In this document: positions 46,489 through 47,561 of the stretch, piece by piece
How positions within the stretch are numbered: the first letter of the stretch is position 1
Layout of the letters: every line of letters starts with the position of its first letter
Source: a virus
Direction: 5' to 3' (one strand)
Length of the DNA stretch: 64,000 nt
Virus record (IMG/VR): IMGVR_UViG_3300025886_000012
Translations under genes and position numbers: made by a program
The notes under the pieces: generated by a model
The model's input: the letters and a program-made list of their open reading frames with translations, nothing else
What the model was told of the DNA's origin: nothing
Database searches by the model: none

Positions 46489-46719
46489 TTACCAGTAAGG
46501 TTGTCCTGTTTTATTTGCAGTTTCTAAATTTTCTTTTATTAACTGAGCCATAATTTCTCTATCTTCAATTGATAAATTGTATGCTTCGCTTAAAGTGAGT
46601 CCGCCTCGCATGTGCCATGATAATTTTGTTAGATGAAATTTTAATTCTTTGCTTTGGCCTTCTAGGATCTCAACCTCTTCAAGAATCTTGTCAAGGGACC
46701 ATCTTGAGATCCTTATGCG
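46489..46719 (-). CDS. -1-frame extension (76 aa) of the gp26-like protein; gp51-like segment
   Basis: Not in track. Open frame RIRISRWSLDKILEEVEILEGQSKELKFHLTKLSWHMRGGLTLSEAYNLSIEDREIMAQLIKENLETANKTGQPYW with no upstream start codon; joined to upstream gene by T TTT TTC. Confidence 0.7.
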   Translation of the reverse strand, partial: RIRISRWSLDKILEEVEILEGQSKELKFHLTKLSWHMRGGLTLSEAYNLSIEDREIMAQLIKENLETANKTGQPYW

Positions 46720-47561
46720 AAAAAATTTGATTGATCAAATGTTATAGGTATTGATATTTCCTCAGGTGCTCCTTGATCAATATCTTCTTGAAGTAACGTT
46801 ACCTTAAATGGTTTTACTGTGAATTTATTTCTTTGTGCATCTAGATGTTCAATAACTGTTTTGTATGTTGATTTATCAGTATTATTAAAAAATTCTACTA
46901 TATGACCAGCATGTGTAACAGTATCTTCTCCTGGAAATTGTACAGCTATTACACTTCGTGTAACATTAAAGATATTTAGATCTGTAATACGACTAAAACT
47001 TTCGTTAAATTTTTCTAATTTTTCTTCGTCAGTTAGACTGTCATCATTTACTGCTGCAAATAATCTTTGTTCTTCAAACGACTTCATTGCTATTTGCGTA
47101 AAATACTTATAAGAAAGAGGTGCTATTTCAAATCGAACTGTATCTGTATTAATCATATTTTCGTATGGCTCACTAACTAATTGATCCAGTACAGTTCTTA
47201 AATCAACTTCAAATGTACGTTCTTCGTTAATTTCTTCTATATTAAATGTTAAATCCATCTTTTCACCATATGTGGCAATACGAATAGCTATTAAAATGGC
47301 ATCAACATCAATACTTGGAACATGCCAAGCATTTTTAATATTAGGCACACAACTTTGAATTACACTAACTGTTGCTTGTCCGTTAAGTAATGCATCTGGT
47401 GTTTTTATTGTAAGTTCGTCTTTAGCAGTCATTGCAAAAATTGGATAATCACCAGTTTCGGTTTCTTCTAACGAGCCATCGGGATAAAAATTACCTTTGC
47501 TAGGAAATTGAATATATAACTTTGGTTGTCTAAAATGTTTAGCTAATGGATTGTCGTTCAT
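46713..47561 (-). CDS. Baseplate hub / tail assembly chaperone, gp26-like
   Basis: ATG 47561 with SD GGAG; NPLAKHFRQPKLYIQFPSKG, MTAKDELTIKTPDALLNG, DVDAILIAIRIATYG. Confidence 0.7.
   Translation of the reverse strand: MNDNPLAKHFRQPKLYIQFPSKGNFYPDGSLEETETGDYPIFAMTAKDELTIKTPDALLNGQATVSVIQSCVPNIKNAWHVPSIDVDAILIAIRIATYGEKMDLTFNIEEINEERTFEVDLRTVLDQLVSEPYENMINTDTVRFEIAPLSYKYFTQIAMKSFEEQRLFAAVNDDSLTDEEKLEKFNESFSRITDLNIFNVTRSVIAVQFPGEDTVTHAGHIVEFFNNTDKSTYKTVIEHLDAQRNKFTVKPFKVTLLQEDIDQGAPEEISIPITFDQSNFFA

What the first reader, a model, noticed from the sequence alone, without database searches (positions are those of the whole stretch)
46489..47561. Programmed -1 frameshift joins a gp26-like chaperone to a start-less gp51-like ORF (lambda G/GT logic in a T4-like phage)
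Seen: the gene ends AAT TTT TTC GCA TAA, containing slippery heptamer T TTT TTC (46725-46719, minus). The -1 frame is closed by TGA just upstream, then stays open for 76 codons with no ATG/GTG/TTG for its first 35 codons and no SD before the first ATG. A -1 slip gives a 357-aa fusion ending GQPYW. A possible stimulatory fold follows 4 nt later (AAGGA/TCCCTT, with TCAAGA pairing to downstream TCTTGA). Established: long-tailed phages make tail chaperones G and GT by -1 frameshifting next to the tape-measure gene, and this gene is adjacent (divergent) to the tape-measure-like gene. Inference: gp26/gp51-type hub-assembly genes here are G/GT equivalents, a link annotation pipelines would miss.
Basis: partly seen in the sequence, partly recalled or inferred. 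Interest (0 to 1): 0.72.

Follow-up and report, generated by a model that had tools for sequence, protein, structure and literature searches.

The report
Frameshift makes two baseplate-hub chaperone forms
One tail-baseplate assembly gene of this uncultured marine giant T4-related phage very probably makes a short and a long protein because some ribosomes slip back one base on a strictly conserved TTTTTTC run, doing with one gene what phage T4 does with its two genes 26 and 51.

Summary
The gene at 47561..46713 (minus strand, 282 aa) belongs to Pfam PF12322, the T4 gp26/gp51 family. It ends AAT TTT TTC GCA TAA. A 76-codon ORF in the -1 frame follows, with no start codon before codon 37.

Evidence that this is a programmed -1 frameshift:
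- All 85 distinct relatives carry the exact T_TTT_TTC heptamer, from marine contigs to RaK2, 121Q, CBB, PA5oct, Atu_ph07, KVP40 and cyanophage S-PM2. TTC makes up only 19% of Phe codons elsewhere in these genes.
- The -1 ORF is conserved as protein from its first codon, but no start codon is conserved.
- A stable stem begins 5 nt after the heptamer.
- Some relatives lack the -1 ORF. They carry a short and a long paralog in tandem, and the long one has the predicted junction in frame (…SNFR…).

In S-PM2 and KVP40 the -1 ORF is the gp51 tail (phrog_634, E 1e-21 to 1e-28). For this window's own tail the link to gp51 is weaker (hhalign E 1e-4).

The resemblance to lambda G/GT is in how the two products are made. 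Homology to G/GT is not shown. No protein, reporter or read data exist.

I found no paper describing this. The scan has already reported the same signal in at least 56 other genomes.

The parts
46713..47561 (-). 0-frame gene, 282 aa, short product (gp26-like baseplate hub assembly protein); stop TAA at 46715-46713
   Evidence: Translation. PF12322 E 2.8e-8, 34.1 bits against a cut-off of 24.5. phrog_150 'baseplate hub' E 9e-11. 6148 relatives of 281-293 aa, all ending NFF[AGEV] or NFFxKGS.
46719..46725 (-). Slippery heptamer T_TTT_TTC (0-frame codons AAT TTT TTC), followed by G
   Evidence: Identical in 85 of 85 distinct homologs; the next base is G in 84 of 85. Also present in KVP40 and S-PM2.
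46735..46737 (-). TGA that closes the -1 frame upstream; together with the 0-frame stop it limits the possible shift window to 7 codons
   Evidence: In most relatives the -1 frame is closed 5 codons upstream (fifth column).
46489..46719 (-). -1 frame ORF, 76 codons plus TAA; C-terminal extension of the long product (gp51-tail-like helical domain)
   Evidence: It is 76 codons long in all 71 distinct marine relatives. Entropy by codon position is 0.96/0.57/1.43. The first canonical start lies anywhere from codon 2 to codon 37. A profile search gives 427 hits, including in-frame fusions.
46489..47561 (-). Whole recoded gene: 357-aa trans-frame product (residues 1-281 in frame 0, then 76 in frame -1), junction ...SNFF|RIRIS...
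   Evidence: Inferred from the parts above. Natural in-frame long paralogs of 319-351 aa have the junction ...S-N-F-R-x-K/R-L-I....
46664..46713 (-). Predicted stimulatory stem-loop starting 5 nt after the heptamer: 10-bp outer stem, 46713-46704 with 46673-46664, and an inner hairpin
   Evidence: strand folding gives -19.8 kcal/mol, z -2.69, 73% of the ensemble. Family-wide, positions 6-17 after the heptamer are a 5' stem arm with mean P 0.79, against 0.44 +/- 0.05 in 21 control windows. Pair counts exceed the shuffled and slid controls.
47624..49792 (+). Divergent 722-aa neighbour (context only): conserved partner gene, possibly the tape measure, followed by the T4-type portal gene (49789..51534)
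Evidence: The same synteny is seen in RaK2, 121Q, CBB, PA5oct, XaC1 and contig L093. There is no Pfam hit and no similarity to T4 gp29. Tape-measure-like clusters appear only from rank 53 at score 0.92 in the atlas search.

Best explanation
This is a programmed -1 ribosomal frameshift near the 3' end of a PF12322 (T4 gp26/gp51 family) baseplate-hub assembly gene.

Proposed mechanism:
- Most ribosomes read AAT TTT TTC GCA TAA and release a 282-aa short form, the gp26 equivalent.
- A fraction pause with tRNA-Phe on UUU (P site) and UUC (A site). A stem that starts 5 nt downstream holds them there.
- Both tRNAs slip back one base onto UUU UUU. Reading then continues in the -1 frame (CGC AUA AGG ...) for 76 more codons.
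- The result is a 357-aa long form that carries a helical C-terminal domain, the gp51 equivalent.

The phage thus obtains, from one gene and at a fixed ratio, the two related hub-assembly proteins that T4 and some uncultured relatives encode as two separate paralogous genes.

Shown here:
- the sequence anatomy;
- strict conservation of the heptamer;
- protein-level conservation of the start-less -1 ORF;
- enrichment of a downstream stem;
- natural in-frame long paralogs with the predicted junction, each sitting beside a short paralog;
- identity of the -1 ORF with the gp51 tail in S-PM2 and KVP40.

Inferred:
- that the slip is ribosomal;
- its efficiency;
- that both forms are needed for hub and tail assembly;
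- that this window's tail is orthologous to the gp51 tail.
For: 1. Anatomy. The heptamer is in the X_XXY_YYZ register inside a 7-codon overlap of the two frames. The -1 ORF has no start codon before codon 37.

2. Heptamer conservation. It is exact in 85 of 85 distinct genes sharing only 28-96% protein identity with the window's. The preceding codon ends in T in 85 of 85, the next codon is TTT in 85 of 85, and the last is TTC in 85 of 85. TTC is only 19% of Phe codons elsewhere in the same genes. A nearby conserved Phe (62 TTT, 13 TTC) and Asp (63 GAT, 19 GAC) vary freely.

3. Stop position. The 0-frame stop lies 1, 4, 6 or 11 codons after the heptamer in different phages. The conserved -1 protein always begins directly at the heptamer (R-x-R/K-I/L-L).

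4. The -1 ORF is coding and has no conserved start. Entropy by codon position is 0.96/0.57/1.43. An ATG at codon 2 occurs in only 10 of 71 sequences, and 22 of 71 have no start before codon 20.

5. In-frame paralogs. 16 of the top 150 profile hits are natural in-frame proteins of 319-351 aa, made of a PF12322 domain plus this tail, with the junction ...SNFR.KLI.... In each of the five contexts that showed the whole upstream gene, it is a short PF12322 paralog. A sixth contig shows only a 30-aa 3' fragment upstream.

6. T4. gp26 and gp51 both match PF12322 over their full length, and gp51 has an extra tail. T4 gene 26 ends ...EFFELL with Phe-Phe coded TTC TTT and no -1 ORF.

7. KVP40 and S-PM2. 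Each has a single PF12322 gene. It ends T TTT TTC GYA TAA and is followed by a -1 ORF that hits phrog_634 'baseplate hub assembly catalyst' at E 6e-21 and 3.5e-28. The S-PM2 tail matches T4 gp51 residues 212-246 by BLASTP at 6e-5.

8. Link to gp51 for this clade. A full-length trans-frame alignment against the gp51 family is colinear end to end (E 4e-5). This clade's tail against gp51 tails gives E 1e-4, probability 56%.

9. RNA structure. A stem starts 5-6 nt after the heptamer. In the window it is -19.8 kcal/mol, z -2.69. Across the family the signal lies 7.6 SD above control windows, and mean MFE is -18.3 against -11.4 kcal/mol. Compensatory GC-to-AU changes are present.

10. Fold. The AlphaFold2 model of an in-frame long form has pLDDT 95 and pTM 0.91, with the tail folded as a confident helical domain.

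11. Reads. An independent DNA contig shows no inserted or missing base at the T6 run.
Against: There is no direct evidence. No junction peptide, reporter assay, ribosome profiling or raw RNA reads exist for any member. The RNA-library contigs found cover only parts of the gene and do not prove transcription.

U_UUU_UUC is not among the classic high-efficiency bacterial heptamers. The host and its tRNA-Phe are unknown.

RNAalifold finds no single consensus structure. The 3' partner of the stem differs between clades, and both candidate helices were derived from the sequences on which they were then tested.

A minority of relatives (10 of 71, plus Atu_ph07 and Phosso) have an ATG overlapping the 0-frame stop. 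That could allow coupled re-initiation as well.

The natural negative control is not clean. Among two-gene lineages the short paralog has non-slippery TTC TTT in L090, L093 and T4. L105 keeps T TTT TTC, and L106 and L107 keep T TTT TTA, each with the -1 frame closed after 1-4 codons.

HMMER does not connect this window's tail to phrog_634 or gp51.
Confidence: 0.88

Rival explanations
1. There are two separate proteins and no fusion. The 76-codon ORF is translated on its own, by termination-reinitiation at the overlapping stop (ATGA-type coupling) or from a non-canonical start such as ATA, and the T-run merely encodes a conserved Phe-Phe.
For: Atu_ph07, Phosso and 10 of 71 marine relatives have an ATG in the -1 frame overlapping or next to the 0-frame stop. 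Database records annotate the small ORF as a separate gene. AAGGA follows the heptamer and looks like a Shine-Dalgarno sequence.
Against: In the window the corresponding codon is ATA, and the first canonical start is codon 37, after the invariant Trp35. The position of the first start ranges from codon 2 to 37 across the family. Codon choice T/TTT/TTC is fixed in 85 of 85 genes although TTC is the minor Phe codon. The 0-frame stop moves by up to 10 codons while the conserved -1 protein always starts at the heptamer. In-frame long paralogs show that the tail is covalently joined to a PF12322 domain at exactly this junction.
Confidence: 0.05
2. The same fusion protein is made by transcriptional slippage. 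RNA polymerase adds one extra U at the T6 run in some transcripts, and ribosomes then read the fusion by standard decoding.
For: The resulting protein would be identical (…NFFR…), so protein-level comparisons cannot tell the two apart. Homopolymer runs are the known substrate for slippage (review PMC5009743).
Against: Six T is short for efficient slippage by bacterial polymerases (established knowledge, not tested here). The run is held at exactly six T followed by CG and never lengthens in 85 lineages. An in-register X_XXY_YYZ heptamer with a stem 5-6 nt downstream is the signature of ribosomal -1 shifting. No inserted base is seen in the few RNA-library contigs, one of which, from a relative, spans the site. 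That is weak evidence, because contigs drop rare variants.
Confidence: 0.05
3. It is an artefact or a decaying gene: a sequencing error in the homopolymer, or a recent frameshift mutation in a gene that is normally one frame.
For: The break lies in a homopolymer run, the classic place for assembly errors.
Against: 85 distinct sequences from independent isolates and metagenomes have the same T6 and the same two frames. An independent contig agrees base for base. None of the 6148 relatives listed or inspected is fused at this site. The in-frame long forms are a separate, diverged paralog.
Confidence: 0.01

Closest known systems
Phage T4 gp26 (208 aa) and gp51 (249 aa), 'hub assembly chaperones' (Leiman et al. 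2010, PMC3004832); Pfam PF12322, with gp51 carrying an added tail (PF28602, phrog_634)
   Same: The N-terminal domain family is the same. Both pairs consist of a short form ending at a conserved Phe-Phe and a long form with a helical tail after it. Both lie in a late morphogenesis gene block: in T4 beside the baseplate-hub genes, here beside a 722-aa ORF and the portal gene.
   Different: T4 uses two diverged, divergently transcribed genes, and its Phe-Phe is coded TTC TTT with no -1 ORF. Here one gene gives both forms, so their N-terminal 281 residues are identical. The window protein is longer and lacks the two Cys pairs seen in T4 gp26 and gp51. Its tail (76 aa) is longer than the gp51 tail and matches it only at profile level (E 1e-4).
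The 'gp26' plus 'gp51' stub pairs of cyanophage S-PM2, Vibrio phage KVP40 and other T4-related phages
   Same: The arrangement is identical: a single PF12322 gene ending T TTT TTC GYA TAA, followed by a -1 ORF.
   Different: Their -1 ORFs are 57-60 aa and are clear gp51 tails (phrog_634, E 1e-21 to 1e-28). The database holds 889 such small proteins carrying PF28602, and those that bear a name are called gp51 or baseplate hub assembly catalyst. None of the papers I could search describes a frameshift there.
Lambda gpG/gpGT and the conserved -1 frameshift of tail assembly chaperone genes (Levin 1993; Xu, Hendrix and Duda 2004, as cited in PMC5009743)
   Same: A -1 slip near the 3' end of an assembly-chaperone gene yields a short form and a C-terminally extended form that share the N-terminus, presumably at a fixed ratio.
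   Different: No sequence homology was found. Structural similarity to the HK97 chaperone 2ob9 is at noise level (Z 4.3; Foldseek probability 0.2) and was not reproduced with the window's own model. The gene does not lie between a tube gene and a tape-measure gene. The proteins are about twice as large. The CBB ortholog is annotated 'structural protein', so absence from the virion is uncertain.
E. coli dnaX -1 frameshift (A_AAA_AAG plus downstream stem-loop)
   Same: The mechanistic template is the same: a tandem slippery heptamer and a stable stem a few nucleotides downstream, giving two products from one bacterial-type message.
   Different: The heptamer is different (U_UUU_UUC). No upstream Shine-Dalgarno-like stimulator is visible. 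In dnaX the shifted product is the shorter one, whereas here it is the longer one.

Membership tests
Pfam PF12322 T4_baseplate (gp26/gp51 family) | HMM match above the curated gathering score | tested here: met
   34.1 bits against a cut-off of 24.5, E 2.8e-8, residues 48-180. phrog_150 E 9e-11 over residues 1-240. Relatives carry precomputed PF12322.
Pfam PF12322 T4_baseplate (gp26/gp51 family) | Same fold as annotated baseplate hub assembly proteins | tested here: met
   The model of an in-frame long relative (pLDDT 95) hits BFVD 'baseplate hub assembly protein, T4-like' at E 5e-14, TM 0.67/0.80, with 55 hits at E<=1e-3. The window's own N-domain model (pLDDT 78.6) was not searched against BFVD.
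gp51 C-terminal tail (PF28602 / phrog_634) | HMM match of the -1 ORF to the gp51 tail family | tested here: inconclusive
   The window tail has no PHROG hit even at E<=10, and PF28602 is not in the local library. hhalign of this clade's tails against gp51 tails gives E 1e-4, probability 56%, 37 columns. The S-PM2 and KVP40 tails match clearly.
gp51 C-terminal tail (PF28602 / phrog_634) | Position: directly after the conserved Phe-Phe that ends the PF12322 domain | tested here: met
   The full-length alignment to the gp51 family is colinear, 15-351 against 4-259.
Programmed -1 ribosomal frameshift cassette | X_XXY_YYZ heptamer in the 0-frame register within the overlap of the two frames | tested here: met
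   T_TTT_TTC at 46725-46719; the overlap is 7 codons.
Programmed -1 ribosomal frameshift cassette | Heptamer and -1 ORF conserved in homologs beyond what the amino-acid sequence requires | tested here: met
   85 of 85 exact. The chance per lineage from codon usage is 0.10. The -1 ORF shows coding periodicity.
Programmed -1 ribosomal frameshift cassette | Downstream stimulatory structure at a spacing of 5-9 nt | tested here: met
   This is a computational result only. Window stem: -19.8 kcal/mol, z -2.69, spacer 5 nt. Family-wide enrichment is 7.6 SD over control windows. There is no single alifold consensus.
Programmed -1 ribosomal frameshift cassette | Trans-frame protein actually made | not testable with these tools
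   No proteome or raw RNA data were available. In-frame natural paralogs with the same junction are indirect support.
Lambda G/GT-type tail assembly chaperones | Gene located between the tail tube gene and the tape measure gene | tested here: not met
   The gene is divergent from a 722-aa ORF of unproven tape-measure identity. An SbmA-like transporter gene lies on the other side.
Lambda G/GT-type tail assembly chaperones | gpG-like chaperone fold or sequence family | tested here: inconclusive
   HK97 chaperone 2ob9: VIA Z 4.3, rmsd 3.5, 96 aligned; Foldseek E 1.3-3.0, probability 0.20-0.23. It is absent from the top 50 for the window's own model. No sequence match to PDB entries.
Lambda G/GT-type tail assembly chaperones | Two products sharing an N-terminus through a -1 shift near the 3' end | tested here: met
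   Met at the level of sequence inference. Not shown at protein level.

The most novel reading that the evidence does not exclude
The PF12322 pair is the T4-lineage counterpart of the lambda G/GT tail assembly chaperones. The pair is gp26/gp51 in T4, and a short form plus a frameshift-extended long form in most other T4-related and giant myoviruses. The shared N-domain would hold the tape measure or hub core, and the tail present only in the long form would recruit the next component. The ratio would be set by slip efficiency. If so, the two-form chaperone principle applies to essentially all long-tailed phages, and the long-unexplained 'catalytic' gp51 gets a concrete mechanism. The relic heptamers in two-gene lineages suggest that the one-gene frameshift state is ancestral and that T4's two genes arose by duplication.
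Probability: 0.35. Interest if true: 0.85.

Novelty: new variant of a known kind. Interest (0 to 1): 0.72.

Why it matters
T4 has been the notable exception to the rule that long-tailed phages make two tail-assembly chaperone forms by a -1 frameshift. The roles of gp26 and gp51 are still listed as unknown or 'catalytic' (PMC3004832).

This finding links the two. gp26 and gp51 are the resolved, two-gene version of a short/long pair. Cyanophages, KVP40 and the RaK2/121Q/PA5oct/Atu_ph07-type giant phages, on the loci examined here, and thousands of uncultured relatives (by inference from their shared NFF ending) appear to make that pair from one gene.

It matters in four ways:
- It corrects a systematic annotation error. 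The small ORFs now called 'gp51', the unannotated ORFs and the 'hypothetical proteins' are C-terminal extensions.
- It adds a large, ancient and strictly conserved U_UUU_UUC cassette to the set of bacterial-type recoding signals.
- It makes the function of gp51 testable, because it is the tail that distinguishes the two forms.
- It gives a natural system for asking why a fixed ratio of two chaperone forms recurs in tail assembly.

Tried and rejected
- blastn of the locus against isolated phages found no match. Relatives are visible only at protein level.
- RNAalifold on 63 aligned junctions gave no consensus structure, because the 3' arm differs by clade. Per-sequence folding and explicit pair counts were used instead.
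- PF28602 is not in the local Pfam library.
- HMMER of the window tail against PHROGs and Pfam gave nothing.
- The first hhalign of the tail alone against full gp51 was weak (E 0.015). Global-mode hhalign failed.
- BLASTP of the KVP40 tail against T4 gp51 was not significant, although its phrog_634 match is strong.
- Foldseek against PDB found no match at E<=1e-3 for either model.
- VIA-align wide search gave a best Z of 5.6 to 7.9, all generic helical hairpins.
- The HK97 tail assembly chaperone 2ob9 appears at noise level with two aligners for the long-form model, but not for the window's own model. It is kept only as a lead.
- PDB sequence searches found nothing relevant.
- 722-aa neighbour: no Pfam or PHROG family, BLASTP against T4 gp29 E 0.24, and tape-measure-like clusters only from rank 53 in the atlas search. 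The 'tape measure' label stays unproven.
- Reads: the raw-read run X21 held none of this phage. RNA-library contigs cover 46926-47556 in pieces, plus a 40-nt piece from a relative across the slip site. This shows neither transcription nor slippage.
- I expected all two-gene lineages to have lost the heptamer. Only some have.
- Literature searches found no description of this frameshift. The library lacks most subscription journals.
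Full report
**Observation.** On the minus strand a gene runs from ATG 47561 to TAA 46715-46713 and encodes 282 aa ending ...FDQSNFFA. Its last codons are AAT TTT TTC GCA TAA, so T_TTT_TTC (46725-46719) sits in the X_XXY_YYZ register. The -1 frame is closed by TGA at 46737-46735 and then stays open for 76 codons, to TAA at 46491-46489. The two frames therefore overlap for only seven codons, and the heptamer lies inside that overlap. 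The first ATG/GTG/TTG of the -1 ORF is codon 37. A -1 slip gives 281 + 76 = 357 aa with the junction ...SNFF|RIRIS...

**What the gene is.** The 282-aa product matches Pfam PF12322 'T4_baseplate' above the curated cut-off (34.1 against 24.5 bits) and phrog_150 'baseplate hub'. The 76-aa -1 product has no family at this sensitivity. The neighbours are a divergent 722-aa ORF with no family, then a T4-type portal gene. On the other side lies an SbmA/BacA-like transporter gene.

The nearest isolated phages are giant T4-related myoviruses: Atu_ph07, Phosso, the 121Q/PBECO4 group, CBB, GAP32, RaK2, PA5oct and XaC1, at 28-36% identity. Metagenomes hold 6148 relatives, almost all of 281-293 aa. All 120 listed, apart from one truncated sequence, end NFF[AGEV] or NFFxKGS. 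Some sit on contigs of 374-382 kb. Sequencing runs that hold this DNA are labelled marine.

**Conservation of the signal.** I fetched 8 isolate loci and 80 IMG/VR loci. Every locus in which the gene end could be read has the exact heptamer T TTT TTC. That makes 85 distinct genes, with G as the next base in 84.

This is not forced by the protein. TTC is only 19% of Phe codons elsewhere in these same genes. A conserved Phe six codons upstream varies (62 TTT, 13 TTC), and so does the neighbouring Asp (63 GAT, 19 GAC). The chance expectation for the full heptamer, given the amino acids, is about 0.10 per lineage.

The 0-frame stop lies 1 codon after the heptamer in 75 loci, 4 codons in 9, 6 codons in RaK2 and 11 codons in XaC1. 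The conserved -1 protein nevertheless always starts directly at the heptamer, with R-x-R/K-I/L-L.

The -1 ORF is 76 codons in all 71 distinct marine relatives and 70-77 codons in the isolates. Its variability by codon position (0.96, 0.57, 1.43 bits) is that of a coding frame. Its first canonical start codon lies anywhere between codon 2 and codon 37: at codon 2 in 10 of 71, and not before codon 20 in 22 of 71. CBB, RaK2 and PA5oct show conserved tail residues upstream of any ATG. RaK2 and PA5oct annotate nothing at this place.

**RNA structure.** RNAalifold gives no single consensus, because the 3' partner differs between clades. The 5' arm, however, is fixed.

- I folded the 80-110 nt after the heptamer in 79 distinct sequences. 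Positions 6-17 are the 5' arm of a stem with mean probability 0.79, against 0.44 +/- 0.05 (maximum 0.53) in 21 control windows inside the same genes. Mean MFE is -18.3 against -11.4 +/- 2.0 kcal/mol.
- In the window, AGGATCTCAA (46713-46704) pairs with TTGAGATCCT (46673-46664) around an inner hairpin: -19.8 kcal/mol, z -2.69, 73% of the ensemble, spacer 5 nt.
- Explicit pair counts support both a proximal helix (columns 12-19 with 38-45; 78% of cells paired, against 61% or less when slid) and a distal helix (columns 13-22 with 53-62; 72% against 54% or less). GC-to-AU double changes exceed the shuffles.
- These helices were read off the same sequences, and the region is coding, so this is supportive evidence rather than proof.

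**The fusion exists in nature in one frame.** A profile of the tail, searched against 1.84 billion proteins, found 427 hits. Sixteen of the top 150 are proteins of 319-351 aa with the tail at their C-terminus. They consist of a PF12322 domain plus the tail in one frame, with the junction ...LDLDFS.NFR.KLI... This matches the predicted trans-frame junction FDQSNFF|RIRIL.

In each of the five genomic contexts that showed the whole upstream gene, this long gene is immediately preceded by a short PF12322 paralog of 287-329 aa that ends near the Phe-Phe motif. One case sits beside a 765-aa ORF and a T4-type portal gene, the same synteny as the window. A sixth contig is cut and shows only a 30-aa 3' fragment upstream. 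So lineages without the -1 ORF still make one short and one long form, from two genes.

An AlphaFold2 model of one long form is very confident (pLDDT 95, pTM 0.91). The tail forms a helical domain, residues 263-338. BFVD matches are 'baseplate hub assembly protein, T4-like' (E 5e-14).

**Relation to T4 gp26 and gp51.**
- T4 gp26 (208 aa) and gp51 (249 aa) both match PF12322 end to end (E 9e-64 and 4e-52). gp51 has about 48 extra C-terminal residues, covered by phrog_634 and, in precomputed tables, by PF28602.
- T4 gene 26 ends ...EFFELL with Phe-Phe coded TTC TTT. It is followed directly by gene 25, with no -1 ORF.
Each has a single PF12322 gene ending T TTT TTC GYA TAA, followed by a -1 ORF of 57 or 60 aa.
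- Those ORFs hit phrog_634 'baseplate hub assembly catalyst' at E 6e-21 and 3.5e-28. The S-PM2 ORF matches T4 gp51 residues 212-246 (BLASTP 6e-5).
- The database holds 889 such small proteins carrying PF28602, and those that bear a name are called gp51 or baseplate hub assembly catalyst. In those phages the -1 ORF is beyond reasonable doubt the gp51 tail.
- For the window's clade the link is weaker. The full-length trans-frame alignment against the gp51 family is colinear from end to end (E 4e-5, probability 70%). The tails alone against gp51 tails give E 1e-4, probability 56%, over the C-terminal 37 columns. HMMER sees nothing. I put orthology of this tail with the gp51 tail at about 0.8, mostly because of its identical position and identical recoding site within the same gene family.

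**Mechanism and rivals.** The best explanation is ribosomal -1 slippage of two tRNA-Phe on U_UUU_UUC, promoted by the downstream stem. It would give a gp26-like short form and a gp51-like long form at a fixed ratio (confidence 0.88).

- Independent translation of the small ORF (0.05). Arguments against are the lack of a conserved start, the fixed minor-codon heptamer, the moving 0-frame stop and the in-frame paralogs.
- Transcriptional slippage on T6 (0.05). It would give the same protein and cannot be excluded from sequence. But the run is short, it is held at exactly six, and it sits in a ribosomal-type cassette.
- Sequencing error or pseudogene (0.01 or less). This is excluded by 85 independent sequences and by an independent contig with no inserted or missing base.

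**Weak points.**
- There are no protein, reporter or raw RNA data.
- The slip efficiency and the host are unknown.
- The negative control is mixed. Short paralogs in two-gene lineages have TTC TTT in L090, L093 and T4. L105, L106 and L107 keep a T-rich heptamer with the -1 frame closed after 1-4 codons. These look like relics and hint that the one-gene state is ancestral.

**Comparison with lambda G/GT.** The expression logic is the same: a -1 shift near the 3' end of an assembly-chaperone gene, giving a short and an extended form with a shared N-terminus. Membership in that family is not supported.
- The gene is not between tube and tape-measure genes.
- There is no sequence relationship.
- The only structural hint is at noise level and was not reproduced with the window's own model. 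HK97 chaperone 2ob9 scores VIA Z 4.3 and Foldseek probability about 0.2.
- The tape-measure identity of the 722-aa neighbour is unproven.
- T4 literature lists gp26 and gp51 as hub assembly chaperones, with gp51 absent from virions and of unknown function (PMC3004832). The CBB ortholog is annotated 'structural protein'.

**Novelty.** Six full-text searches and several papers read found no description of this frameshift. The library lacks many subscription journals, so prior description cannot be ruled out. This scan has already reported the same signal in at least 56 other genomes, with the same reading. I formed my reading before consulting those notes and tested their specific leads, KVP40, S-PM2 and the gp51 stubs, myself. 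I class this as a new variant of a known kind: a conserved -1 frameshift giving two assembly-chaperone forms, in a non-homologous protein family and in the T4 lineage, where none was known.

Noticed in passing
window 43953-46487 (+): Four tightly packed membrane-protein genes sit among the morphogenesis genes. The last one (45510..46487) is a full-length SbmA/BacA-like transporter (PF05992, E 2e-131), unusual cargo for a phage. Another note of this scan (e1-5324549) already covers it.
   Followed up: partly
window 11809-25419 (-): A single 4536-aa ORF, followed by ORFs of 1174, 884 and 1046 aa on the same strand. These are giant structural-type genes typical of very large phages. I did not analyse them.
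   Followed up: no
L105:1660-1704, L106:50-95, L107:995-1040: In lineages that encode the short and long forms as two genes, the short paralog sometimes keeps a slippery T TTT TTC or T TTT TTA at the homologous Phe-Phe, with the -1 frame closed after 1-4 codons. These look like relics of the frameshift site and suggest the one-gene state is ancestral.
   Followed up: partly
L093:1-2709 (-): The T4-type portal gene of this uncultured relative is interrupted by an intein with an HNH nuclease domain (PF07230 + PF14890 + PF13392 + PF07230 in one 963-aa product).
   Followed up: no
window 46709-46748: Contigs of other phages in the same metagenomes match the window at 90% or more only across these roughly 30-40 nt around the slip site, and diverge on both sides (records 3, 6, 7, 8). 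The slip site is the most conserved nucleotide stretch of the gene.
   Followed up: partly
L089:5803-6090 (T4 gene 26'): T4 annotates an in-frame internal start inside gene 26 that gives a 95-aa C-terminal product (26'). T4 may therefore also make more than one form of gp26, by a different route.
   Followed up: no
model m7f618a3223f8 (long form P0247), residues 64-242: The HK97 tail assembly chaperone (PDB 2ob9) appears with two independent aligners (VIA Z 4.3, 96 of 104 residues aligned; Foldseek, with the highest probability in the list at 0.20-0.23). Both scores are at noise level, and it is absent for the window's own model.
   Followed up: partly
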